64,000 nucleotides of DNA from a virus. The notes under the pieces were generated by a model. The model did no database searches and had not been told where the DNA came from. It worked only from the letters and a program-made list of their open reading frames with translations. Of the stretch, positions 13,485-47,069 are shown one piece after another. The position numbers and the translations under genes are program-made. Numbering within the stretch: position 1 is the first letter of the stretch; each line of letters starts with the position of its first letter. The DNA lies in the IMG/VR virus record IMGVR_UViG_3300042914_002167; one strand, written 5' to 3'.

Positions 13485-14062
13485 AATCATTCAAAGAATA
13501 CATAGCAGAAGCGAAAGGAGACTTATCTACTACAGAGAAGGCTCTTTTGGACAAATACAATGAAAACAAAAAAATGTATGGTCATACTCATATTCCTATT
13601 CAGGGTAAGCGTGAGCATGATGCAGCTAAGAAATTAGTTGCGAAGGGTCATGCGAAAGAGTATAAAAACATGAGTGGGTTGTCTAAGGGTGAATACAAGA
13701 TAAGCCCATTTACTCGTAAGGCATACACCACTAAAGATTTGTTTGTATACGGCGGAGAACTGGTGTTCGAACCCACTGTTGGAGACATTACATCTGAGTT
13801 CATCAATAGATACAAAGATGATCCTAAGGGCGTATACAATCAAGCTAAAGCGGCATACTTAGACGCAGTAAGTGCAGCAAAGTCTCATTCCGTGAAAGCT
13901 GCGGAACTGCACAAGTCACACGAAACTATGTCCAAAATAGAATTTCAAAATTCTGTGATGAAGCACTTCGGTAAACATCTGAAGAAGTATGGATTTCCAA
14001 AACATGCATCTAAGGGATGGGGAGATGCGGAGCATGATCTTCTAAAAGAACTATCAAAATGA
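13481..14062 (+). CDS. Probable internal head protein (GTG start)
   Basis: N-terminus MKSFKEYIAEA resembles the T4 capsid-targeting sequence MKTYQEFIAEA. Confidence 0.65.
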   Translation: MKSFKEYIAEAKGDLSTTEKALLDKYNENKKMYGHTHIPIQGKREHDAAKKLVAKGHAKEYKNMSGLSKGEYKISPFTRKAYTTKDLFVYGGELVFEPTVGDITSEFINRYKDDPKGVYNQAKAAYLDAVSAAKSHSVKAAELHKSHETMSKIEFQNSVMKHFGKHLKKYGFPKHASKGWGDAEHDLLKELSK

Positions 14063-15288
14063 AATCATTCAAAGAACACATAAGTGAAGAGAAAAATCTT
14101 CACATGGAACACGGTGAAGACCTTGTTCTAAATGCAGGAGTCAAAGGCACACGCGAGGTGATCAATTCACTCCGTGCAGTTCGCGATATGCTGGCTGGTA
14201 ACTCAACAAAGAAAGTTGATGTGACAGTCAAGTGGGATGGTGCACCTGCTATCTTCGCTGGGCAAGATCCAAGAGATGGAAAGTTCTTCATCGCAAAGAA
14301 GGGTATCTTCAACAAGAATCCTAAGCTATACAAAACGAATGCTGAGATTGACGCAGACACATCTGGTGATCTTGCAGACAAACTAAAAGCATGTCTCCGA
14401 TACCTACCTGAACTAGGCATCAAAGGAGTTGTGCAAGGTGATTTGCTATACACTAGAGAAGACATCAAAGATGCTACTATTGATGATGTGGAGTACATCA
14501 CATTCCATCCAAACACCATCGTATACGCAGTGCCTAAAGCTAGTGATCTCGCTAAGAGAATTCTGTCAAGCAAGATTGGTCTTGCATGGCACACAATCTA
14601 CGAAGGCGACTCTCTAGAAACAATGAAGGCTGTGTTCGGAAAGAACATCGTTGGATCATTCAGTGCATCTAGAAACGTATGGTCAACCGACGTTGACTAC
14701 AAAGACGTATCTGGCAAAGCAACAATGACTGCTGAAGAGACTGCACAAGTCACCGAGTTGCTATCTCAAGCAGGAAAGTTGTTCTACAAACTTGACGCAA
14801 AGATTCTGAATGGCATCTCAGATGACGAAGAACTCCTGATGCGAATCAAGACATTCAACAACATGAAGGTTCGCGCACAACAAAGAATCACGAATGTTGC
14901 AGCACACGTATCTGGATTGATTGAGTACATGAACGGCATCTACTCAAAAGAAGAACAAGAAAAGAAGACAGAAAAAGGCAAGTCTGCTGTTCAACAGAGA
15001 GCAAAGAAAGTCTTGTCATTCTTCAATCCAAAGAGCAAGAAGCAACTAGAGAATATCTTCACGATGATGAATCTTCTAGTTGACGCAAAGCAGATGTTGA
15101 TAGATAAGTTGAACGAAGTCAAAAAGCTGGACACATTCTTGTTGACTAAGAACGGATACAAAGTCACTGGCGTAGAAGGCTACGTAGCAATTGACAAGCT
15201 ATCCGGTAACGCTGTAAAATTGGTGGACAGAATGACGTTTAGTTACGCAAACTTCTCACCTGACGTAATCAAGGGATGGGAGAGATGA
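14059..15288 (+). CDS. Conserved T4-like protein with ligase-like KxDG motif (DUF6267-like)
   Basis: MKSFKEHISEE; VTVKWDGAPA; QGDLLY; EGYVA; VKLVDR. Confidence 0.65.
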   Translation: MKSFKEHISEEKNLHMEHGEDLVLNAGVKGTREVINSLRAVRDMLAGNSTKKVDVTVKWDGAPAIFAGQDPRDGKFFIAKKGIFNKNPKLYKTNAEIDADTSGDLADKLKACLRYLPELGIKGVVQGDLLYTREDIKDATIDDVEYITFHPNTIVYAVPKASDLAKRILSSKIGLAWHTIYEGDSLETMKAVFGKNIVGSFSASRNVWSTDVDYKDVSGKATMTAEETAQVTELLSQAGKLFYKLDAKILNGISDDEELLMRIKTFNNMKVRAQQRITNVAAHVSGLIEYMNGIYSKEEQEKKTEKGKSAVQQRAKKVLSFFNPKSKKQLENIFTMMNLLVDAKQMLIDKLNEVKKLDTFLLTKNGYKVTGVEGYVAIDKLSGNAVKLVDRMTFSYANFSPDVIKGWER

Positions 15289-39459: not shown

Positions 39460-39830
39460 TTGACGGATCAGCATCAACCGATGTATACTGTGTCTGTTGA
39501 GTGAGAAATCGCTCAACGTCAGAGGAAGAAGAAAGACTGACTAAAACAGTCAAGAATTCAGAAGCCTCTTGACAAGATGCGGTAGACGATGTATACTGTA
39601 TCTGTTGAGTGAGAAATCGCTCGGTTCTTTAACAATCAGTGATTAGATCGAAGTGCTAGTGTAAATGAGCACACACCCCTAGTACTAGTCTGGAATCAAG
39701 GGTGGAGAACACGCGGCTCAAAAAGCAGATGCGAGTGCATTTCGATCTAATCATTGAAAGTTGTTGACAGTAAATCAGGTTACTGATACACTGTCTTCAT
39801 TGCTGAGAAATCGGCGATGTTCTTTAACAA
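39460..39830 (+). promoter_or_regulatory. Three tandem sigma70 promoters with boxB-like GAAA hairpins and boxA sites
   Basis: TTGACG/TATACT, TTGACA/TATACT, TTGACA/TACACT; (G/T)GTTCTTTAACAA at 39623 and 39818. Confidence 0.8.
39636..39757 (+). ncRNA. Long-stem structured RNA cassette A
   Basis: ~21-bp closing stem TCAGTGATTAGATCGAAGTGC/GCATTTCGATCTAATCATTGA. Confidence 0.6.
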
Positions 39831-39844
39831 TCAGAAGATCATTT

Positions 39845-39919
39845 GCTCCCGTCGTCTACTGGCTAGGACGCTGCCCTTTCAAGGCGGAAAAGACGGATCG
39901 AAACCGTTCGGGAGTACCA
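39845..39919 (+). tRNA. tRNA-Glu(TTC)
   Basis: Cloverleaf, CCA. Confidence 0.9.
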
Positions 39920-39996
39920 TATTGAAGCACACTATCTTGCTGGTGCATACAACGGGTTATGAGCGAGTCTTAATAATAGTGTGTTTCAATATGGTA
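39915..39996 (+). ncRNA. Long-stem cassette B (CCATATTGAA family)
   Basis: ACCATATTGAAGCACACTAT/ATAGTGTGTTTCAATATGGT. Confidence 0.65.
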
Positions 39997-40082
39997 AAGA
40001 ATTTGTATTTACGACTGTGTACTACTCCTAATTTATGGAGACTACAAGCAGCGCCGGAAAGCGTAACCGGCTAGAATATAAT

Positions 40083-40170
40083 GGGGGCTGTTCTCTGCGG
40101 GTGACTGTAAATCACTTGCCATAATATGCAGAGTGGCGGCAATTAGGTTCGATTCCTTCAGTCCCCACCA
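40083..40170 (+). tRNA. Atypical D-armless tRNA-Tyr(GTA)-like RNA
   Basis: Acceptor stem, CTGTAAA loop, T-loop, CCA; no D arm. Confidence 0.6.
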
Positions 40171-40177
40171 AGTTTTT

Positions 40178-40272
40178 GGGTGTATTGGCAGAAATAGGTT
40201 ATGCATCTCAGAGTACACTGTGATCAACAGTCGAAAGAGAATATTCGGGTGCGAATCCTGAAACATCCACCA
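40178..40272 (+). tRNA. tRNA-like RNA with expanded anticodon arm
   Basis: Acceptor, D and T arms and CCA present; 27-nt region in place of the anticodon loop. Confidence 0.55.
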
Positions 40273-40279
40273 AGTTTAT

Positions 40280-40354
40280 GGGCTGATAGTGATAATGGGA
40301 GCACAGGGGCTTTGCAAGCCTTTAGTCGGGGTTCGATCCCCCGTCGGTCCACCA
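40280..40354 (+). tRNA. tRNA-Ala(TGC)
   Basis: G3:U70, CCA. Confidence 0.9.
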
Positions 40355-40360
40355 AGTTAT

Positions 40361-40456
40361 GCTGTATTCCAAGTTACTGCGATCTCTCAGTTCAAAGCTG
40401 TCGCAGTGTAAAGAGAAGAACGATAGGTCAATCTTCTTGGATAAAATACAGCGCCA
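40361..40456 (+). ncRNA. CCA-ended non-cloverleaf RNA
   Basis: GCTGTATT/AATACAGC stem plus GCCA; internal hairpin and possible TCTCT/AGAGA pseudoknot. Confidence 0.5.
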
Positions 40457-40460
40457 ATAC

Positions 40461-40535
40461 ACCCGCATGGCTCAGTGGTAGAGCAGCGTCTTGATAAGGC
40501 GAAGGTCGGTGGTTCAATCCCACCTGTGGGTACCA
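40461..40535 (+). tRNA. tRNA-Ile(GAT)
   Basis: Cloverleaf, CCA. Confidence 0.9.
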
Positions 40536-40544
40536 AGACAAGAT

Positions 40545-40622
40545 GGGACTATAGTTTAACGGTTAAAACATCTCCCTTTTAAGGAGTAAGACTCTTCGGT
40601 TCGAATCCGAGTGGTCCCACCA
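40545..40622 (+). tRNA. tRNA-Lys(TTT)
   Basis: Cloverleaf, CCA. Confidence 0.88.
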
Positions 40623-40628
40623 AAATTT

Positions 40629-40668
40629 GCGACCGTAACTCAGTGGATAGAGTAGAAAACTTCATTTT
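40629..40668 (+). pseudogene. 5' half of a tRNA-Arg-like gene
   Basis: GCGACCGTAACTCAGTGGATAGAGTAGAAAACTTC breaks off at the anticodon. Confidence 0.6.
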
Positions 40669-40684
40669 TATATATAGAATAAAT

Positions 40685-40762
40685 GCGGCTGTAGCTCAGA
40701 GGAATTAGAGCATCGCTCTTCTAAAGCGAGGGTCGTTGGTTCGAATCCAACCAGCCGCACCA
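40685..40762 (+). tRNA. tRNA-Arg(TCT)
   Basis: Cloverleaf, CCA. Confidence 0.92.
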
Positions 40763-40781
40763 AATTCTAAAGGACAAAAAA

Positions 40782-41528
40782 ATGAAGAAAATATGCAATA
40801 AATGTAATAACGAATTTACAACTAGATCGGGCAACTATGATAAACATATAAATTCTTGCAATGGAATCTATATTAGATTTGAAAAATCTATCAAATGTAA
40901 ATACTGTAGTTTAGATTTTTCTGATCTGAAAACATCTGAAAGAGCAAATCACAGCAGATGGTGCGATAACAATCCAAAAAGAAAACAATACAATAAACAT
41001 CTTGAGAAAGCTAGGAATGAAATAACTCAAGAAAGTAGAAGAAAAGCTGCTGAGAGAATCAAACAAGCCCATGCAGAAGGCAAGTATGCTGGTGTTGCTA
41101 AGAAAGTGATAGATATTAGAAGAAAAAGAGGTTCGTTATTTCATTCAAATGAAACAAAGGATCTTATTAGACAAAAAGCACTTTCTTCGCCTCACCGAAG
41201 ATTGAAAAGAAAAATGATTGAGTATAATGGCGTTTGGTTAGACTCAACATGGGAATTAGAACTTGCTAAAAGATTAGATAGTTTAGGGATAAAGTGGATT
41301 AGACCAGATCCACTTCCTTGGTTCGATGAGTGTGGAGTCAAGCATAACTATTTTCCAGACTTCTATCTTATAGACTATGATATATTTCTTGATCCAAAAA
41401 ACGCCCATGCAAAAAAGGTGCAGTTGAAAAAAATTGATTGCTTACGGGTGCAGTACCAAAATATTGTTATAATAAACACCTTAGAAGAATGTAAGACATA
41501 CTTTCCACACAATAAAGAAAAGTGTTGA
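40782..41528 (+). mobile_element. Putative homing endonuclease (Zn fingers, NUMOD-like segment, PD-(D/E)xK domain)
   Basis: CxxC pairs; HSNETKDLIR; DSTWELE...YFPDFYL...LDPK; AT-rich. Confidence 0.75.
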
Positions 41529-41629
41529 CATCCGATGTGTTCTGATTTATAATGAACACATCAAGAAAAGCACGAAGACTGCCACCCCGGCAAGAGTGCG
41601 ACGAGGTTGTCGAATCTGCCTCGGTATGT

Positions 41630-41703
41630 GCCTCTTTAGTTTAATGGTAAAACTCCGCCCTTACAAGACGGTTACGGCAGTTCGATTCTGTCAAGAGGCA
41701 CCA
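41630..41703 (+). tRNA. tRNA-Val(TAC)
   Basis: Cloverleaf, CCA. Confidence 0.88.
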
Positions 41704-41895
41704 TTTAGTTTGTTGTTTCTGAAAATACCTGTGCAACCAGGTCAGTGCAATGCTAATACTGTGGACGGTACCTTTCAAACAGTACGCAGTTCTCTCTGAC
41801 GAAAAACGGAGTAGCTACCTAAAATAAGTCGGTGGGATGAAAAGCAAACGGCTACGGGTGAACGTAGTCTATAAAGAGACAACAAACTAAATGGT
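41700..41895 (+). ncRNA. Long-stem cassette C
   Basis: ACCATTTAGTTTGTTGTTTCT/AGAGACAACAAACTAAATGGT. Confidence 0.6.
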
Positions 41896-41903
41896 TTTAC
41901 AAT

Positions 41904-41983
41904 GGCCGACGGGACTGCATGGAGTGGTCGCTTGCCTGTCACGCAAGAGAGTCAGAGGGGATCGTTACCCCTGTCGGTCGCCA
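41904..41983 (+). tRNA. tRNA-Asp(GTC)
   Basis: CTGTCAC loop, CCA; atypical T-loop. Confidence 0.8.
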
Positions 41984-41994
41984 AGCAAAACAAT

Positions 41995-42068
41995 CGCGGG
42001 CGAGGAAGAGAGCAATCCGCTAGGCTCATAACCTAGAGATACCCTGTGCGACTCGGGGGTCCGCAACC
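41995..42068 (+). tRNA. tRNA-fMet(CAT)
   Basis: C1:A72 mismatch, CTCATAA loop. Confidence 0.75.
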
Positions 42069-42078
42069 CTTCAGTTTT

Positions 42079-42140
42079 AGAGTAGGTTCAGCAAACAATA
42101 ATACATTAGACTTGTAATCTAAACCGTAAAAAACTACTCT
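42079..42140 (+). ncRNA. CAGCAAA-family RNA 1
   Basis: AGAGTAG-GTTCAGCAAAC...AAA-CTACTCT. Confidence 0.65.
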
Positions 42141-42151
42141 GTTGTAACAAT

Positions 42152-42226
42152 AGGTCATAAACTTTGATGGTGAAGTCCACCCTCTTAAGGTGAGAGAACG
42201 CAGTTCGAACCTGCGATGACCTACCA
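42152..42226 (+). tRNA. tRNA-Lys(CTT)-like with irregular anticodon arm
   Basis: Acceptor and T arms, CCA; CACC-TCTTAA-GGTG. Confidence 0.65.
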
Positions 42227-42237
42227 AAAGTAAATTA

Positions 42238-42314
42238 GCCCCGGTGACGGAATAGGTATACGTGTTGGTCTTAGAAACCAAATTTTAGGAGTTCGAGTCT
42301 CCTCTGGGGCACCA
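42238..42314 (+). tRNA. tRNA-Leu(TAG), short variable loop
   Basis: Cloverleaf, CCA. Confidence 0.85.
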
Positions 42315-42779
42315 TATTGAAGCACATTGTTAGTTCACGGGTGTGGCAACCCTAAGCAGAAGCGTGCCAGCAGCCAATTGGGTCGATCTTCTGTCAGTGT
42401 GTTTCAATATGGCGAGTTAGGTAGTTCTAAAGTGAAGGGTGACCAGAGGTTTTGCAAGACCGAAGAGAGAGATAACCGAGGAGTGAAAATACGTCTAGAT
42501 CCGTACTACCAAGGACGTTCTTGCCGCCATATTGAAACACATTTTTCTGAAACGCCAGTCGCGCGCCATGCATAGTAGGTTAAGTGTGTTTCAATATGGT
42601 AAGTGCGTTATAGTGTGTAGTGGGTGGGATTAGTCCTTTCACGGCCCATGAAGCTCTACCCGCTCAGTGACGCAGCGGGACCATATTGAAGCATATCGGG
42701 TACGGGGCTTACCTGACTAGTAAGCGTGTGCGGGAGTTAGTCGCCCGTATCGCAGAACACCGGTATGTTTCAATATGGT
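42312..42779 (+). ncRNA. Tandem long-stem cassettes D (42312-42412), E (42527-42599), F (42680-42779) with structured spacers
   Basis: Each bounded by CCATATTGAA(G/A)CA.../...TGTTTCAATATGG. Confidence 0.7.
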
Positions 42780-42785
42780 AAATTT

Positions 42786-42862
42786 GCCCGGGTGATGGAA
42801 TAGGAATACATACCGAACTTAAAATTCGGGTTTTACGGGTTCGACCCCCGTCCCGGGTACCA
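42786..42862 (+). tRNA. tRNA-Leu(TAA), short variable loop
   Basis: Cloverleaf, CCA. Confidence 0.85.
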
Positions 42863-42875
42863 TTAAGGATAAACT

Positions 42876-43253
42876 ATGAAGCTTAAGAATTTTGAAATTG
42901 CCGAAGAATACCTATCATCTGTAAATGTTGTACAGGAGGCGGAGTATACCTTACAATCCCCTCTTGAATATGTACCAGAACATATAAGAGAGATGTTCAA
43001 GGATGGGAAGGCTAAGATGACTACGCAGTCCTGGGCTGACCATCCGGAGTTTGTTAAACTACGCCATCTACTAGAAGCCGAAGGGTACGTTAGAGTAGAA
43101 TGGGGTTGGTGGAATGGAGATAGGGTATTAAAAGCATTCACACTTAACGGTATTAGGTTTTATAAAGATGGCCAATTTCCGTGTGCGTCTGCACTCGGAA
43201 TACAGTATAAGATTGCAAAAGAAAACGGTAGAAAAACATTTAGTAAGTATTGA
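42876..43253 (+). CDS. Hypothetical protein inside the tRNA array
   Basis: AAGGA RBS; GWWNGDRVLK motif. Confidence 0.65.
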   Translation: MKLKNFEIAEEYLSSVNVVQEAEYTLQSPLEYVPEHIREMFKDGKAKMTTQSWADHPEFVKLRHLLEAEGYVRVEWGWWNGDRVLKAFTLNGIRFYKDGQFPCASALGIQYKIAKENGRKTFSKY

Positions 43254-43284
43254 GTTTTATTCCCCTTGACGCACGAGGTGTTAT

Positions 43285-43447
43285 GGTATCAAATAGTAAG
43301 ACCTATGTAAAATGTGTAACCAGCAGCCTAACTTTCAAGGTATTACCGATCTCTGTCATGCAATAAATGTGCTGTGGTGGCACTGCATTGATATGAGAGG
43401 GCATCTTATGCTCTTAAACAGATGAAAGTGTCTTACTATTTGATACT
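43285..43447 (+). ncRNA. Long-stem cassette G
   Basis: GGTATCAAATAGTAAGAC/GTCTTACTATTTGATACT. Confidence 0.6.
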
Positions 43448-43522
43448 GGTGATATGACGTAGATGGATGCGTAGCGGTTTCATAAGCCGACGAGGAAGGA
43501 TCGATACCTTCTATCACCACCA
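43448..43522 (+). tRNA. tRNA-Met/Ile2(CAT)
   Basis: TTCATAA loop, CCA. Confidence 0.8.
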
Positions 43523-43752: not shown

Positions 43753-43804
43753 AAAAAAAGTTCTTGACAAGTGTTCAGAACGCATATATAATTTAGAAAT
43801 CAAT

Positions 43805-43883
43805 TCCGCAGAACCCGAGCATGGTGCATGGGCTGGACTGTTAATCCATGGTTAGCTGAGATCGTTACTCAGATGCGGAGCCA
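43805..43883 (+). tRNA. tRNA-Asn(GTT)
   Basis: CTGTTAA loop, CCA; atypical T-loop. Confidence 0.8.
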
Positions 43884-43891
43884 AGAATAAC

Positions 43892-44720: not shown

Positions 44721-45215
44721 GTGTATACCAGAATGAATGTTGACGCAGTGAAAGACTTCATCATGAATCAGTCTCCAGAGACAAAAGTCTACATTGGTGG
44801 AGACTCTGAGCGCATTATGATCAATGACGTTTGGTATGCCGATTATACTCTTGCTGTTGTTGTTCATATTGACGGAAAGCATGGCTGTAAAATCTTTGGT
44901 GATGTGCAGCGTGAAAAAGACTATGAGAAGAACAAGAACAGACCTCGAATGAGGCTCATGACGGAAGTCTACAAGATTTCCGAATTGTATCTCCAGCTTG
45001 CTGATGTCTTAGAAGACAGAGAAGTTGAAATTCACCTGGACATCAACCCAGATGAAAGATACGGAAGTTCTTGTGTAGTGCAAGAAGCAATCGGATACAT
45101 TCGCGGTATGTGTAATGTGGTGCCTATGGTAAAGCCAAGAGCATTCGCAGCATCTTACTGCGCAGACAGACTAAAAGAGATCATAAACATGCAGCAAAAC
45201 AAACTTGCAGCATGA
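44721..45215 (+). CDS. RNase H-like YkuK-family protein
   Basis: VYIGGDS...RLMTEV...EIHLDIN...KPRAFAASYCAD. Confidence 0.8.
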   Translation: MYTRMNVDAVKDFIMNQSPETKVYIGGDSERIMINDVWYADYTLAVVVHIDGKHGCKIFGDVQREKDYEKNKNRPRMRLMTEVYKISELYLQLADVLEDREVEIHLDINPDERYGSSCVVQEAIGYIRGMCNVVPMVKPRAFAASYCADRLKEIINMQQNKLAA

Positions 45216-45620: not shown

Positions 45621-45641
45621 GTTGCATTGAAAGGAAATATC

Positions 45642-47069
45642 ATGAACACTTTTGTTGACGCTGTTATGAATCAAGAAGCCCGCACTGAGAATGGAATGAA
45701 GGCGCGCAAGTCTACTTCCAATGCATGTGTGGATCTGTTTTTCAAGATCGGCGCATCTCGCGGCAAGAGCATCCTGAAGGAGTTCACGGCTGCATACGTT
45801 GAGAACAAGGACCTTGCACTGCGCATTGCACAGTGGGCGCGTGATGCGCGTGGTGGTTCTGGTGAGCGCCAGGTGTTTCGCGACATCTTGGCATATCTGG
45901 AAAAGAATGATCAAGAATCCGCAAAGGCTCTTTTGCCTAAGGTGCCTACTCTTGGGCGTTGGGATGACATCTTTGTCTTCCAAACTTCCGAGTTGAAGTC
46001 TGCTGCATACAGTATGCTTGGTGATGCACTGCGCGAGAAGAATGGTTTGGCTGCTAAGTGGACTCCTCGCCAAGGTCCAATCGCAGTTGAGATCCGCAAG
46101 TTCTTCGGCATGTCTCCGAAGTTCTATCGGAAGTCTCTTGTTGAGATGACTAAGGTCGTTGAGCAACAAATGTGTGCTAAGGAATGGGATGAGATCAACT
46201 TCTCTCATGTTCCTTCTGTTGCACATGCGCGATACAAGAAGGCTTTTGGGCGTAACACTCCTAAGTACGCTGAGTACGTGACTTCCCTTGTTAAGGGTGA
46301 CAACCCCGAAGTCAAGGTGAATGCAGGTGCAGTGTATCCTTACGATGTGTTGAAGGGTGCGATCTCTCCTTACAATAGAGTTCAGTTTGACAAGACTGGG
46401 CTTGATCTGATGACTAAGCAGTGGGAAGCACTGGAGAACTTCATCGGTGATGCAAGCGTGTTGCCTCTGGTTGACGTTAGCGGATCTATGACTATCCCTG
46501 TGGGTGGTCATGGTTCTAAGACTCAGTTGAATTGTCTGGAAGTTGCAGTCTCTTTGGGATTGTACTGTGCAGACAAGAACAAGGGTAAGTTCAAGGACAC
46601 GTTCTTGACTTTCTCTGAGCATCCAGAACTGATGCATCTGAAGGGCAACATCGTTCAGAAGATTGAGCAGATGAATTCCTCAGATTGGGGAATGAATACT
46701 GATCTGGTTTCAGCAATGAACCTGATCCTGATGACTGCTGTGAAGGGCAATGTTCCTCAAGAGGAAATGCCTGGAATGCTTCTGATCATGTCCGATATGC
46801 AGTTTGATCGATGCGCAAGTTTTGATGACTCCGCTATGGAGACAATCAAGCGCAAGTTCACTCAGAACGGATATGAAGTGCCTGCGATTGTGTTCTGGAA
46901 TATCAACTCAAAGGACAATGTTCCTGCGAAGTCTAATCAGAGCAAGGTTGCGATGGTATCTGGTTTCAGCCCAGCTATCATGAAGTCTGTTCTGAGTGCT
47001 GACACTGAAAAGTTCACACCAGAAGGCATCATGTTGAACACTGTGATGGTACCAAGGTACGATCTGTAA
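45642..47069 (+). CDS. DUF2828-family TROVE/Ro60-like protein with C-terminal vWA domain
   Basis: RTENG, ARDARGGSGER, GRWDD, AAKWTPR, VDVSGSM (MIDAS), SDMQFD, IVFWN, VSGFSP. Confidence 0.85.
   Translation: MNTFVDAVMNQEARTENGMKARKSTSNACVDLFFKIGASRGKSILKEFTAAYVENKDLALRIAQWARDARGGSGERQVFRDILAYLEKNDQESAKALLPKVPTLGRWDDIFVFQTSELKSAAYSMLGDALREKNGLAAKWTPRQGPIAVEIRKFFGMSPKFYRKSLVEMTKVVEQQMCAKEWDEINFSHVPSVAHARYKKAFGRNTPKYAEYVTSLVKGDNPEVKVNAGAVYPYDVLKGAISPYNRVQFDKTGLDLMTKQWEALENFIGDASVLPLVDVSGSMTIPVGGHGSKTQLNCLEVAVSLGLYCADKNKGKFKDTFLTFSEHPELMHLKGNIVQKIEQMNSSDWGMNTDLVSAMNLILMTAVKGNVPQEEMPGMLLIMSDMQFDRCASFDDSAMETIKRKFTQNGYEVPAIVFWNINSKDNVPAKSNQSKVAMVSGFSPAIMKSVLSADTEKFTPEGIMLNTVMVPRYDL

What the first reader, a model, noticed from the sequence alone, without database searches (positions are those of the whole stretch)
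39636..43447. Family of long-stem RNA cassettes that clamp tRNA CCA ends
Seen: seven 17-21-bp stems (39636, 39915, 41700, 42312, 42527, 42680, 43285). Four share CCATATTGAA(G/A)CA / TGTTTCAATATGG with G-U pairs, but each encloses a different structured insert of ~40-155 nt (D and F have potential loop pseudoknots TGGCA/TGCCA and GACTA/TAGTC). Five begin at a CCA, three of them the CCA of the preceding tRNA, so the distal TGG pairs with it. Inference: RNase III-type processing stems that release an interchangeable set of small RNAs (decoys, antitoxin mimics, aptamers) and may gate tRNA 3' maturation; a constant-frame, variable-cargo RNA array.
Basis: partly seen in the sequence, partly recalled or inferred. 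Interest (0 to 1): 0.75.

Follow-up and report, generated by a model that had tools for sequence, protein, structure and literature searches.

The report
Hairpin-framed swappable RNAs between phage tRNAs
Between the tRNA genes of this uncultured lake phage sit small RNA units closed by a long stem, four by the same stem around different inserts; they belong to a large undescribed phage family whose nearest known relative is the function-unknown stable RNAIII of coliphage T5.

Summary
All seven long stems exist and fold far better than shuffled sequence. Five start at a CCA, and three of those are the CCA of a tRNA.

They are not one family.
- B, D, E and F share an 18-20 bp helix that starts at CCA (CCAUAUUGAARCACAYU / ARUGUGUUUCAAUAUGG).
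- C belongs to a separate, strongly covarying RNA family of about 200 nt.
- A and G are further hairpin-closed RNAs.

The B/D/E/F type is widespread in uncultured T4-like phages. I found 269 distinct copies holding 165 unrelated insert types. Nearly all lie in tRNA islands on the tRNA strand, with G.U pairs only on that strand. Half are flush with a tRNA CCA. Inserts are swapped at fixed sites: tRNA-Glu genes 92-95% identical are followed by unrelated inserts.

Rfam 15 has no match, and the papers searched did not turn up the motif. This scan had already noted the family on other DNA.

The closest known thing is T5 RNAIII, which has a 20-bp helix starting at the CCA of RNAI. Its annotated ends give a 2-nt 3' overhang, and its cargo differs among T5 relatives.

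Best reading: these are processing and stability frames, probably cut by host RNase III, and the arms also serve as handles for recombination. What the cargo does is unknown. A Ro60-like partner is unlikely.

The parts
39636..39757 (+). Cassette A: hairpin-closed RNA with a 21-bp stem that does not start at CCA. It lies downstream of a near-consensus promoter (39569-39597). It contains the module CCCCUAGUA...GAAUCAAGGG at 39676-39703.
   Evidence: Fold z -5.8; promoter scan; the module is shared with a 13-member metagenomic cargo cluster.
39845..39919 (+). tRNA-Glu(UUC); its discriminator and CCA form the first pairs of cassette B.
   Evidence: ARAGORN and Rfam.
39915..39996 (+). Cassette B: main-family frame, 21-bp helix, cargo of about 40 nt.
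   Evidence: Fold z -8.0; 96% identical orthologue in L077.
40361..40451 (+).
   Evidence: Fold of 40355-40460, z -3.1.
41630..41703 (+). tRNA-Val(UAC); its ACCA starts the helix of cassette C.
41700..41895 (+). Cassette C: member of a separate conserved structured RNA family of about 200 nt, with a 21-24-bp closing helix and conserved motifs GGAAAA, ACGAAA, AAAGCAAAC, GGUGA, AUAAC.
   Evidence: Fold z -5.1. In a 5-sequence alignment, 33 of 48 pairs show compensatory changes (A4).
42238..42314 (+). tRNA-Leu(UAG); its CCA starts cassette D.
42311..42413 (+). Cassette D: main-family frame, cargo of about 67 nt.
   Evidence: Fold z -4.7. A lake-metagenome contig carries the same arms around a different 28-nt cargo.
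42526..42600 (+). Cassette E: main-family frame, cargo of about 37 nt. It is preceded by a 113-nt stretch that is poorly structured.
   Evidence: Fold z -5.1; upstream stretch z +1.9; 98% orthologue in L077.
42659..42683 (+). Small hairpin followed by ACCA (a tRNA-like 3' end) from which cassette F starts.
   Evidence: Fold of 42600-42683. Such hairpins are enriched before non-tRNA cassettes: 59 of 134 against 21 expected.
42680..42779 (+). Cassette F: main-family frame, G+C-rich cargo of about 64 nt. It ends 6 nt before tRNA-Leu(UAA), which starts at 42786.
   Evidence: Fold z -7.0.
43284..43448 (+). Cassette G: a separate hairpin-closed RNA with a 17-19-bp stem, flush with the tRNA at 43448-43519.
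   Evidence: Fold z -4.9. The L077 orthologue has the arms identical, conserved blocks, and insertions or deletions in parts of the cargo with no predicted pairs. Rfam tRNA hit.

Best explanation
B, D, E and F are members of a large phage family of small non-coding RNA cassettes that are co-transcribed with tRNAs. Each cassette is a variable, structured cargo of about 27-190 nt closed by a conserved helix with no bulges. The helix is 18-20 bp long and begins at the NCCA 3' end of the upstream RNA, which is a tRNA or a small hairpin ending in CCA. It often runs up to, or into, the 5' end of the next tRNA.

Inferred mechanism:
1. In the polycistronic transcript the helix folds. Host nucleases free the unit. 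The most likely route is a staggered RNase III cut about 7-8 bp above the CCA.
2. Exonucleases then trim the short A/U-rich trailer back to the CCA, and RNase P removes the downstream remnant.
3. The cargo keeps an 11-12 bp clamp that protects it as a stable small RNA.
4. At the DNA level, the two conserved arms act as short homology handles. Recombination between phages uses them to exchange cargoes while the site stays fixed.

Shown: the fold, its conservation, RNA-strand selection, anchoring at CCA, cargo conservation within types, and cargo swapping. Inferred: which nuclease cuts, that the cargo is stable, and that the arms are where the exchange happens. Unknown: what the cargoes do.

C, G and A follow the same design principle (a terminal closing helix inside a tRNA operon) but are different RNA families.
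For: Fold and significance:
-.

Family size:
- A two-arm pattern scan of metagenome contigs gave more than 120 further loci.
- Together these hold 269 distinct CCA-anchored cassettes in 176 sources, falling into 165 cargo clusters.

RNA level:
- 86 of 89 cassettes lie within 2 kb of tRNA genes, and 80 of 86 fold better on the tRNA-sense strand.
- Variant stems show two-sided changes, e.g. UUGAA/UUCAA to UUUCA/UGAAA or UAAAA/UUUUA.

Helix geometry:
- Length is 17-20 bp from the CCA, with a mode of 18.
- Positions 4-10 are nearly all A/U, and position 16 is a U.G pair in 70% of copies.

Anchoring:
- 135 of 269 are flush with a tRNA CCA.
- Of the other 134, 59 have a hairpin of at least 5 bp ending 1-2 nt before the CCA, against 21 expected.
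- In 48, the G's that pair with CC are the first bases of the next tRNA.

Cargo is constrained:
- G+C is 49%, against 41% for the loci and 53% for tRNAs.
- Cargo types are conserved, with compensatory changes.

Swapping:
- 16 cassettes that follow tRNA-Glu carry 13 cargo types.
- tRNA-Glu pairs 92-95% identical have unrelated cargo.
- The same cargo occurs in different tRNA contexts.
- Similarity to relatives stops at the end of the arms.
- Lake-metagenome contigs join modules at these borders, and one carries D's left arm, a new 28-nt cargo and B's right arm.

Precedent:
- T5 RNAIII is annotated as 'stable RNA with unknown functions'. Its 20-bp helix starts at the CCA end of RNAI, and its annotated ends leave a 2-nt 3' overhang.
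- The T5 relatives atrejo and SE24 keep the proximal helix but carry other cargo.
- The RNase III dimer accommodates about 22 bp of dsRNA (PMC6212723).
Against: - There are no RNA data for this phage or its relatives, so no end, cut or stable product has been observed.
- The 3' end of T5 RNAIII coincides with the -1 position of tRNA-His, so RNase P could make it. The 2-nt stagger may therefore be a coincidence.
- I could not verify that the GenBank ends were measured rather than predicted.
- In E. coli, in vivo RNase III double-cut sites favour G-C pairs between the two cuts (PMC6212723). The corresponding pairs here are A-U.
- The host, and therefore its nuclease set, is unknown.
- About a quarter of the cassettes have neither a tRNA nor a hairpin in front of the CCA.
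- Arms are no more alike within a genome than between genomes, so gene conversion is not demonstrated.
- The sample was collected with exact arm patterns, which inflates the apparent conservation of positions 1-13.
Confidence: 0.55

Rival explanations
1. tRNA punctuation with a stability clamp only. The units are freed solely by tRNA-maturation enzymes: RNase E or a similar enzyme cuts just after the CCA, exonucleases trim, and RNase P cuts at the next tRNA. The full-length helix is never cut and serves only to protect the cargo from exonucleases.
For: Units are flush with tRNA-type ends on both sides. The conserved CCA-U|AUU matches the RN|WUU preference of E. coli RNase E; that preference is from my own recall and was not checked here. 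The T5 RNAIII 3' end equals the tRNA-His -1 site. The pairs between the putative RNase III cuts are A-U rather than the favoured G-C.
Against: RNase E needs single-stranded RNA, and the site lies inside a perfect helix. The annotated T5 RNAIII 5' end is 4 nt beyond the CCA, inside the helix, with an exact 2-nt stagger to the 3' end. The tight 17-20 bp length is not needed for a clamp alone.
Confidence: 0.22
2. Selfish or purely DNA-level elements: MITE-like palindromic insertions or recombination linkers whose inserts are junk and whose RNA has no role.
For: The architecture is inverted terminal arms around a variable interior. Modules are shuffled between related phages with breakpoints at the arms. 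Precedents, from my own recall: Correia elements and the PeSL cassettes of T4-type phages.
Against: There is no target-site duplication; the flanking bases covary as inverted pairs (ca...tg, ga...tc). 80 of 86 are oriented with the tRNAs, and G.U pairs occur only on that strand. Interiors are unrelated rather than copies. Cargo G+C is raised, and cargo types are conserved with covariation. Among one genome for each of 185,579 bacterial and archaeal species there is a single hit, and it is a phage-like tRNA-array contig.
Confidence: 0.08
3. Y-RNA-like partners of the nearby DUF2828/DUF7788 protein (45627-47069). I suspect this protein is Ro60-like but did not test that. In this reading the conserved stem is the protein-binding site and the cargo is the effector module.
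For: There is a long terminal stem of conserved sequence with a variable distal domain. A T-loop-like motif occurs in 9 of 117 cargoes against 1.2 expected. The protein gene lies in the same tRNA island.
Against: Of four cassette-bearing phage genomes that are 94-100% complete, only one encodes this protein. 710 phage records have the protein, and no cassette arm was found by blastn in isolated phages. Rfam Y_RNA and YrlA do not match the cassettes. The helix has no bulge. The protein has no sequence match to solved Ro60 structures.
Confidence: 0.05
4. CCA clamp as a regulator. The main job of the helix is to sequester the 3' CCA of particular tRNAs, delaying or gating their maturation or hiding the CCA from host enzymes. 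The cargo would be secondary.
For: The helix always includes the CCA and usually the discriminator (A-U at position -1 in 61%). There is a preference for certain tRNAs: Glu, Leu, Gln, Ile.
Against: Half of the cassettes follow no tRNA. Family members exist whose helix base is CUA or GCAAUAUU rather than CCA. Only a minority of tRNAs in each island have a cassette. Cargo conservation would be left unexplained.
Confidence: 0.07

Closest known systems
Phage T5 RNAIII (GenBank AY543070, misc_RNA rnaIII, 'stable RNA with unknown functions')
   Same: It lies in the tRNA cluster. It is closed by a 20-bp helix with no bulges that starts at the CCA 3' end of the upstream RNA (RNAI) and ends in the 5' end of tRNA-His. 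The proximal arm CCACAAUUGA resembles CCAUAUUGAA. The cargo differs among T5 relatives while the proximal helix is kept.
   Different: There is one locus per genome, not an array. The arm sequence is offset by one base and differs distally. The host is enterobacterial. No one has described it as a frame-plus-cargo family. Homology as opposed to convergence is not established.
Phage T4 species 1 and 2 RNAs (rnaC, rnaD)
   Same: They are small stable RNAs of unknown function, co-transcribed with tRNAs in a T4-type phage. rnaD ends in CCA and rnaC carries a T-arm.
   Different: They have no long closing helix (about 7 bp, tRNA-like) and no shared frame.
rRNA-operon and T7 early-transcript RNase III processing stems (from general knowledge)
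   Same: Long duplexes formed by sequences flanking an embedded RNA, cut to release it from a polycistronic precursor.
   Different: Those stems are longer or carry internal loops, and they are not sequence-conserved frames around interchangeable cargo. Cleavage has not been shown for the stems here.
PeSL cassettes of T4-type phages and integron attC sites (recalled, not tested)
   Same: Short conserved repeats that border modules and go with modular shuffling in hyperplastic regions.
   Different: PeSL units hold a promoter plus a terminator-like stem-loop and border protein genes. attC needs an integrase. Here the repeats are the two arms of one RNA helix, and the unit exchanged is a non-coding RNA.
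Bacterial Y RNAs (YrlA)
   Same: A terminal stem plus a variable distal module, sometimes with a T-loop.
   Different: There is no match to the Rfam model, no bulged binding helix, and no consistent Ro-like partner gene.

Membership tests
CCA-anchored closing-helix cassette family (unnamed; lake T4-like phages) | Helix begins at an NCCA and has the proximal sequence CCAUAUUGAA / UUCAAUAUGG | tested here: met
   B, D, E and F match exactly. C starts at ACCA but with a different arm. A and G do not qualify.
CCA-anchored closing-helix cassette family (unnamed; lake T4-like phages) | Helix with no bulges, 17-20 bp counted from the CCA | tested here: met
   B, D, E and F are 18-21 bp. The family distribution has a mode of 18.
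CCA-anchored closing-helix cassette family (unnamed; lake T4-like phages) | Located in a tRNA island, on the tRNA-sense strand, with G.U pairs on that strand only | tested here: met
CCA-anchored closing-helix cassette family (unnamed; lake T4-like phages) | Cargo unrelated between copies and exchangeable at a fixed site | tested here: met
   The four window cargoes are unrelated. 165 clusters overall, with swapping after tRNA-Glu.
RNase III substrate | About two turns of regular dsRNA | tested here: met
   18-21 bp with no bulges. The enzyme's valley holds about 22 bp (PMC6212723).
RNase III substrate | Staggered cuts that leave 2-nt 3' overhangs and depend on rnc | not testable with these tools
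   Only the annotated ends of the T5 analogue fit. No RNA data are available.
RNase III substrate | Base-pair preferences around the cut (G-C favoured between the cuts in E. coli) | tested here: inconclusive
   If the cut is placed as in T5, the central pairs are A-U or U-A. The host enzyme is unknown.
Y RNA / YrlA | Match to the Rfam covariance models | tested here: not met
   No match to RF00019 (Y_RNA) or RF02553 (YrlA) was listed on any cassette at E up to 5 (window) or up to 1 (five loci).
Y RNA / YrlA | Ro60/Rsr-type partner gene in the same genome | tested here: not met
   The DUF2828 protein is present in 1 of 4 near-complete cassette-bearing genomes.
MITE / Correia-like element | Target-site duplication and near-identical interiors among copies | tested here: not met
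   Flanks are inverted complements, not direct repeats. Interiors are unrelated.
T5 RNAIII-type stable RNA | Closing helix of about 20 bp that starts at the CCA of the upstream RNA and abuts the next tRNA | tested here: met
   for T5; for the family.
T5 RNAIII-type stable RNA | Accumulates as a stable RNA in infected cells | not testable with these tools
   No RNA data are available for the window's phage.
tRNA | Match to tRNA models | tested here: not met
   ARAGORN and Rfam tRNA do not call any cassette, including those with T-loops.

The most novel reading that the evidence does not exclude
The arms form an RNA-cassette exchange system. A conserved helix serves both as the RNA processing and stability frame and as the DNA homology handle. 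Through it, lake T4-like phages (and T5-like coliphages at the RNAIII site) trade a library of hundreds of small structured RNAs. These cargoes would be host-directed effectors, such as decoys or inhibitors of tRNA-targeting defence nucleases or of RNA-processing enzymes, and they would turn over in an arms race in the way anti-defence protein genes do.
Probability: 0.2. Interest if true: 0.85.

Novelty: new variant of a known kind. Interest (0 to 1): 0.64.

Why it matters
Phage tRNA islands are usually annotated as tRNAs plus spurious small ORFs. In the isolated cyanophage BUCT-ZZ01, one such hairpin is overlapped by an annotated 'hypothetical protein'.

This work shows that the gaps hold a large, conserved and modular class of non-coding RNAs with a common frame. 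It links that class to stable RNAs that the T5 GenBank record annotates as having unknown functions.

The frame gives a simple way to find hundreds of new structured phage RNAs. The link to T5 (E. coli) and BUCT-ZZ01 (Synechococcus elongatus PCC 7942) makes their processing and function testable in laboratory strains. The frame may also be useful as a natural scaffold for expressing stable RNAs.

Tried and rejected
- **Rfam.** Gathering and E-value scans of the window and of five related loci found no family for any cassette.
- **Isolated phages.** blastn of cassette E against 50,697 phage records gave no real hit. Related hairpins in BUCT-ZZ01 were found only with my own hairpin scan.
- **Expression.** No RNA holder was listed among public runs, so expression could not be examined.
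- **Own genome.** None is held for this window.
- **Literature.** Full-text searches for the arm sequences, for T5 stable RNA and for tRNA-cluster hairpins found no description.
- **DUF2828 as Ro60.** There is no sequence match to solved structures. I did not fold the protein because the co-occurrence test already argued against a link.
- **Phage-encoded RNase III.** None was found in five related records. The YkuK-like nuclease (PF04308) is present in 3 of 4 complete genomes, so it is not obligatory.
- **Concerted evolution of arms within genomes.** Not detected: 0.763 within against 0.753 between, with 557 of 2000 permutations reaching the observed value. The sample is biased by how it was collected.
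- **Cargo-alone folding.** Z-scores are modest (mean -0.5), so thermodynamic stability does not by itself show function.
- **First alignment of the C family.** It used the wrong strands and gave nothing. It was redone correctly.
- **Pseudoknots in D and F.** At chance level, with no orthologues to test them.
- **Host.** The single hit in bacterial genome bins is a 1.5-kb contig of nine tRNAs in a Ca. Planktophila MAG. That is too weak to name a host.

Full report
**Context**

The window is part of an uncultured T4-like myovirus. Its DNA polymerase is 54% identical to those of Synechococcus cyanomyoviruses. It carries typical replication and nucleotide-metabolism genes. No genome is held for it, and near-identical DNA occurs in lake-water metagenomes.

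Positions 39.8-48.6 kb form a tRNA island. It has 26 ARAGORN tRNAs plus some seen only by Rfam. It is driven by several near-consensus sigma-70-type promoters on the + strand.

**Checking the observation**

All seven stems are real.
- Each unit's minimum-energy fold is closed by the long stem. Z-scores run from -4.7 to -8.0, and none of 200 shuffles did as well.
- The arms CCATATTGAA(G/A)CA and TGTTTCAATATGG occur four times each in 64 kb, only here.
- B, C and D begin at the CCA of tRNA-Glu, tRNA-Val and tRNA-Leu(UAG).
- E and F begin at a CCA that belongs to no recognisable tRNA. F's CCA follows a small hairpin plus A.
- A and G do not begin at CCA. A follows a promoter, and G abuts the tRNA at 43448.
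- There is at least one more hairpin-closed unit, at 40361-40451.

**The family beyond the window**

In those loci I found 89 cassettes with both arms and inserts of 29-156 nt.
- 86 of 89 lie within 2 kb of tRNA genes.
- 80 of 86 fold better on the tRNA-sense strand, because the mismatches are G.U on that strand and A-C on the other. That is the signature of selection on an RNA rather than on a DNA palindrome.

A general hairpin scan found many variant arms, such as ACCAUAUAAAAACACAUU, ACCAUAUUUCAACACAUUC and ACCAUAGUUCAACACAUUA. Their changes are matched on the other arm.

The same pattern found a single hit among one genome for each of 185,579 bacterial and archaeal species. That hit is a 1.5-kb contig with nine tRNAs binned in a Ca. 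Planktophila MAG, which looks like a phage fragment.

Pooled, there are 269 distinct CCA-anchored cassettes in 176 sources, with 165 unrelated cargo clusters. Rfam 15 has no model that matches. No paper searched contains the arm sequences in this context. Earlier notes of this scan describe the same family on other genomes, so it is not new to the scan.

**Anatomy of the frame**

Counted from the first C of CCA, the helix is 17-20 bp with a mode of 18, and it ends abruptly at the cargo.
- Positions 4-10 (UAUUGAA) are almost invariant and A/U-rich.
- Positions 11-17 vary by transitions.
- Position 16 is U.G in 70% of copies. Position 11 is G.U in 34%.
- The discriminator A usually pairs too.

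These figures are inflated by the exact patterns used to collect the sample. The variant arms, though, show real two-sided changes.

Upstream and downstream contexts:
- Half of the cassettes (135 of 269) are flush with the CCA of an ARAGORN tRNA.
- Of the other 134, 59 have a hairpin of at least 5 bp ending 1-2 nt before the CCA, against 21 expected from shuffles. Several others show T-arm-like sequences.
- In 48 cassettes, the G's that pair with CC are the first bases of the next tRNA.
- In 47 more, a tRNA starts 4-16 nt downstream.

The units are therefore fitted between tRNA-type ends.

**Cargo**

Cargo G+C is 49%, against 41% for the loci and 53% for tRNAs. That argues against neutral filler.

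Cargo types seen in several phages are conserved and show compensatory changes.
- The largest type (13 sequences) has invariant CCCCUAGUA and GAAUCAAGGG strands around a covarying helix. The AGUA/GAA pair resembles a loop-E or sarcin-ricin motif; that comparison is from my own knowledge.
- The same module sits in the window's cassette A at 39676-39703, inside a different frame.

A T-loop-like motif occurs in 9 of 117 cargoes against 1.2 expected, often right before the 3' arm. One type is cloverleaf-shaped. None scores as a tRNA.

Folding z-scores of the cargo alone are modest.

**Swapping**

- Sixteen cassettes that follow tRNA-Glu carry 13 cargo types.
- tRNA-Glu pairs that are 92-95% identical are followed by unrelated cargoes of different length.
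- The same cargo type occurs after different tRNAs.
- Similarity between the window and its relatives runs through the tRNA and the left arm and then stops.
- The closest relative, L077, has the window's modules in a different order, with breakpoints at module borders.
- Contigs from four lake-metagenome runs show the same joints. One has D's left arm, a new 28-nt cargo and B's right arm.

So 'interchangeable' is correct as an evolutionary statement. I could not show gene conversion within genomes.

**The seven stems are not one family**

Cassette C aligns with four metagenomic RNAs of about 200 nt. 33 of 48 predicted pairs show compensatory changes, there are conserved single-stranded motifs, and the closing helix is anchored at CCA in only some members. 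It is a separate structured RNA family.

G has a 70%-identical orthologue with identical arms and conserved blocks; its insertions and deletions fall in parts of the cargo with no predicted pairs.

**Partners**

The nearby DUF2828/DUF7788 protein suggested a Y-RNA-like system. Only 1 of 4 near-complete cassette-bearing genomes encodes it. The protein is common in phages where no cassette arm was found.

The YkuK-like nuclease is present in 3 of 4. No phage RNase III was found.

If a protein recognises the frame, it is probably a host protein.

**Closest known: T5 RNAIII**

GenBank AY543070 annotates several 'stable RNA with unknown functions' in the T5 tRNA cluster.
- RNAIII is closed by a 20-bp helix, GCCACAAUUGAAAAUUCGUA / UGCGAGUUUUCAAUUGUGGC. 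The helix starts at the CCA that is the annotated 3' end of RNAI and runs into tRNA-His.
- The annotated RNAIII starts 4 nt after that CCA, at helix position 8. It ends two bases beyond the partner of position 8, which gives a 2-nt 3' overhang as RNase III would leave.
- That 3' end is also position -1 of tRNA-His, so RNase P could make it. I also cannot confirm that the ends were measured.
- The T5 relatives atrejo and SE24 keep CCACAAUUGA but have compensatory changes further up the helix and quite different cargo of 38 and about 95 nt.

The same frame-and-cargo logic therefore exists in cultured coliphages. The isolated cyanophage BUCT-ZZ01 also has three related hairpins in its tRNA island, one of them under an annotated ORF. 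T4 rnaC and rnaD lack such a helix.

**Mechanism**

I commit to a processing-and-stability frame. The helix folds in the tRNA polycistron. Host RNase III most likely cuts about 7-8 bp above the CCA. The A/U-rich lower half then melts and is trimmed back to the CCA on one side and removed by RNase P on the other. The cargo keeps an 11-12 bp clamp.

The tight helix length, close to the roughly 22 bp that the enzyme dimer accommodates (PMC6212723), and the T5 ends both fit this. The A-U pairs at the putative cut do not fit the E. coli in vivo preference. Bacillus subtilis Mini-III prefers ACC^U in dsRNA (PMC4357697), which shows that sequence-selective dsRNA cutting near an ACC is possible. I have no evidence for it here.

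A clamp-only model, without any cut in the helix, is the main rival.

The arms probably also act as recombination handles. This explains swapped cargo at fixed sites, but it is an inference from breakpoints. The functions of the cargoes are unknown.

Noticed in passing
window 41700-41895; L088:5180-5392(-), L005:7140-7360(-), L097:7424-7629(-), L102:9215-9421(+): Cassette C belongs to an undescribed structured RNA family of about 200 nt. 33 of 48 pairs are compensatory among five sequences, and there are conserved unpaired motifs (GGAAAA, ACGAAA, AAAGCAAAC, GGUGA, AUAAC). Rfam has no match.
   Followed up: partly
window 39676-39703; alignment A7 (13 metagenomic cassettes): A conserved cargo module, CCCCUAGUA - small covarying hairpin - GAAUCAAGGG (AGUA/GAA, loop-E or sarcin-ricin-like). 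It occurs in cassette A and, within the main frame, in 13 other phage contigs.
   Followed up: partly
window 43797-43884: A probable atypical tRNA-Asn(GUU): acceptor UCCGCA/UGCGGA, loop CUGUUAA, ending GCCA. ARAGORN and Rfam both miss it, yet it is 80-94% conserved in more than 12 related loci.
   Followed up: no
window 40082-40170 and 40178-40272: Two tRNA-like units that the tRNA finders do not call. One has a long extra arm and a GUA anticodon-like loop (weak tRNA-Sec hit, 24.5 bits). The other has an insertion of about 40 nt between an acceptor-like stem and a T-arm-like hairpin.
   Followed up: no
window 40782-41528 (+): A 248-aa endonuclease-like ORF (phrog_15137 and phrog_945 'endonuclease', phrog_9019 'Holliday junction resolvase') inside the tRNA island. 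It recalls the homing endonuclease SegB in the T4 tRNA cluster and may contribute to module shuffling.
   Followed up: no
window 44721-45215 and 45627-47069 (+): A YkuK-type RNase H-like protein (PF04308) and a DUF2828/DUF7788 protein lie side by side in the island. Both genes are also found in DLP_6, BUCT-ZZ01 and Vibrio phage D484; they are adjacent in D484 but about 3 kb apart in BUCT-ZZ01 and about 13 kb apart in DLP_6.
   Followed up: partly
L073:10590-11049; L049:1-180: GOLLD RNA (Rfam RF02032, 191 bits in L073, with a tRNA nested inside) occurs in the tRNA islands of related cassette-bearing phages. None was found in this window.
   Followed up: no
window 39479-39514 and 39587-39622; 39624-39639 and 39819-39834: Duplicated promoter-proximal blocks: a 36-nt repeat at 97% identity that includes the -10 region and a small hairpin, and an exact 16-nt repeat GTTCTTTAACAATCAG. 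They precede cassette A and tRNA-Glu and suggest repeated early-promoter modules.
   Followed up: no
L122 (Synechococcus phage BUCT-ZZ01, ON615601) 13971-14101: A 24-bp hairpin-closed unit of the same kind is overlapped by an annotated 'hypothetical protein' CDS (locus 13987-14181). The CDS is probably a mis-annotation.
   Followed up: no
L128 (CAZQNP010000058.1): A 1.5-kb contig with nine tRNAs and one cassette is binned in a Ca. Planktophila (freshwater actinobacterium) MAG. It is probably a phage fragment and at most a faint hint about the host.
   Followed up: partly
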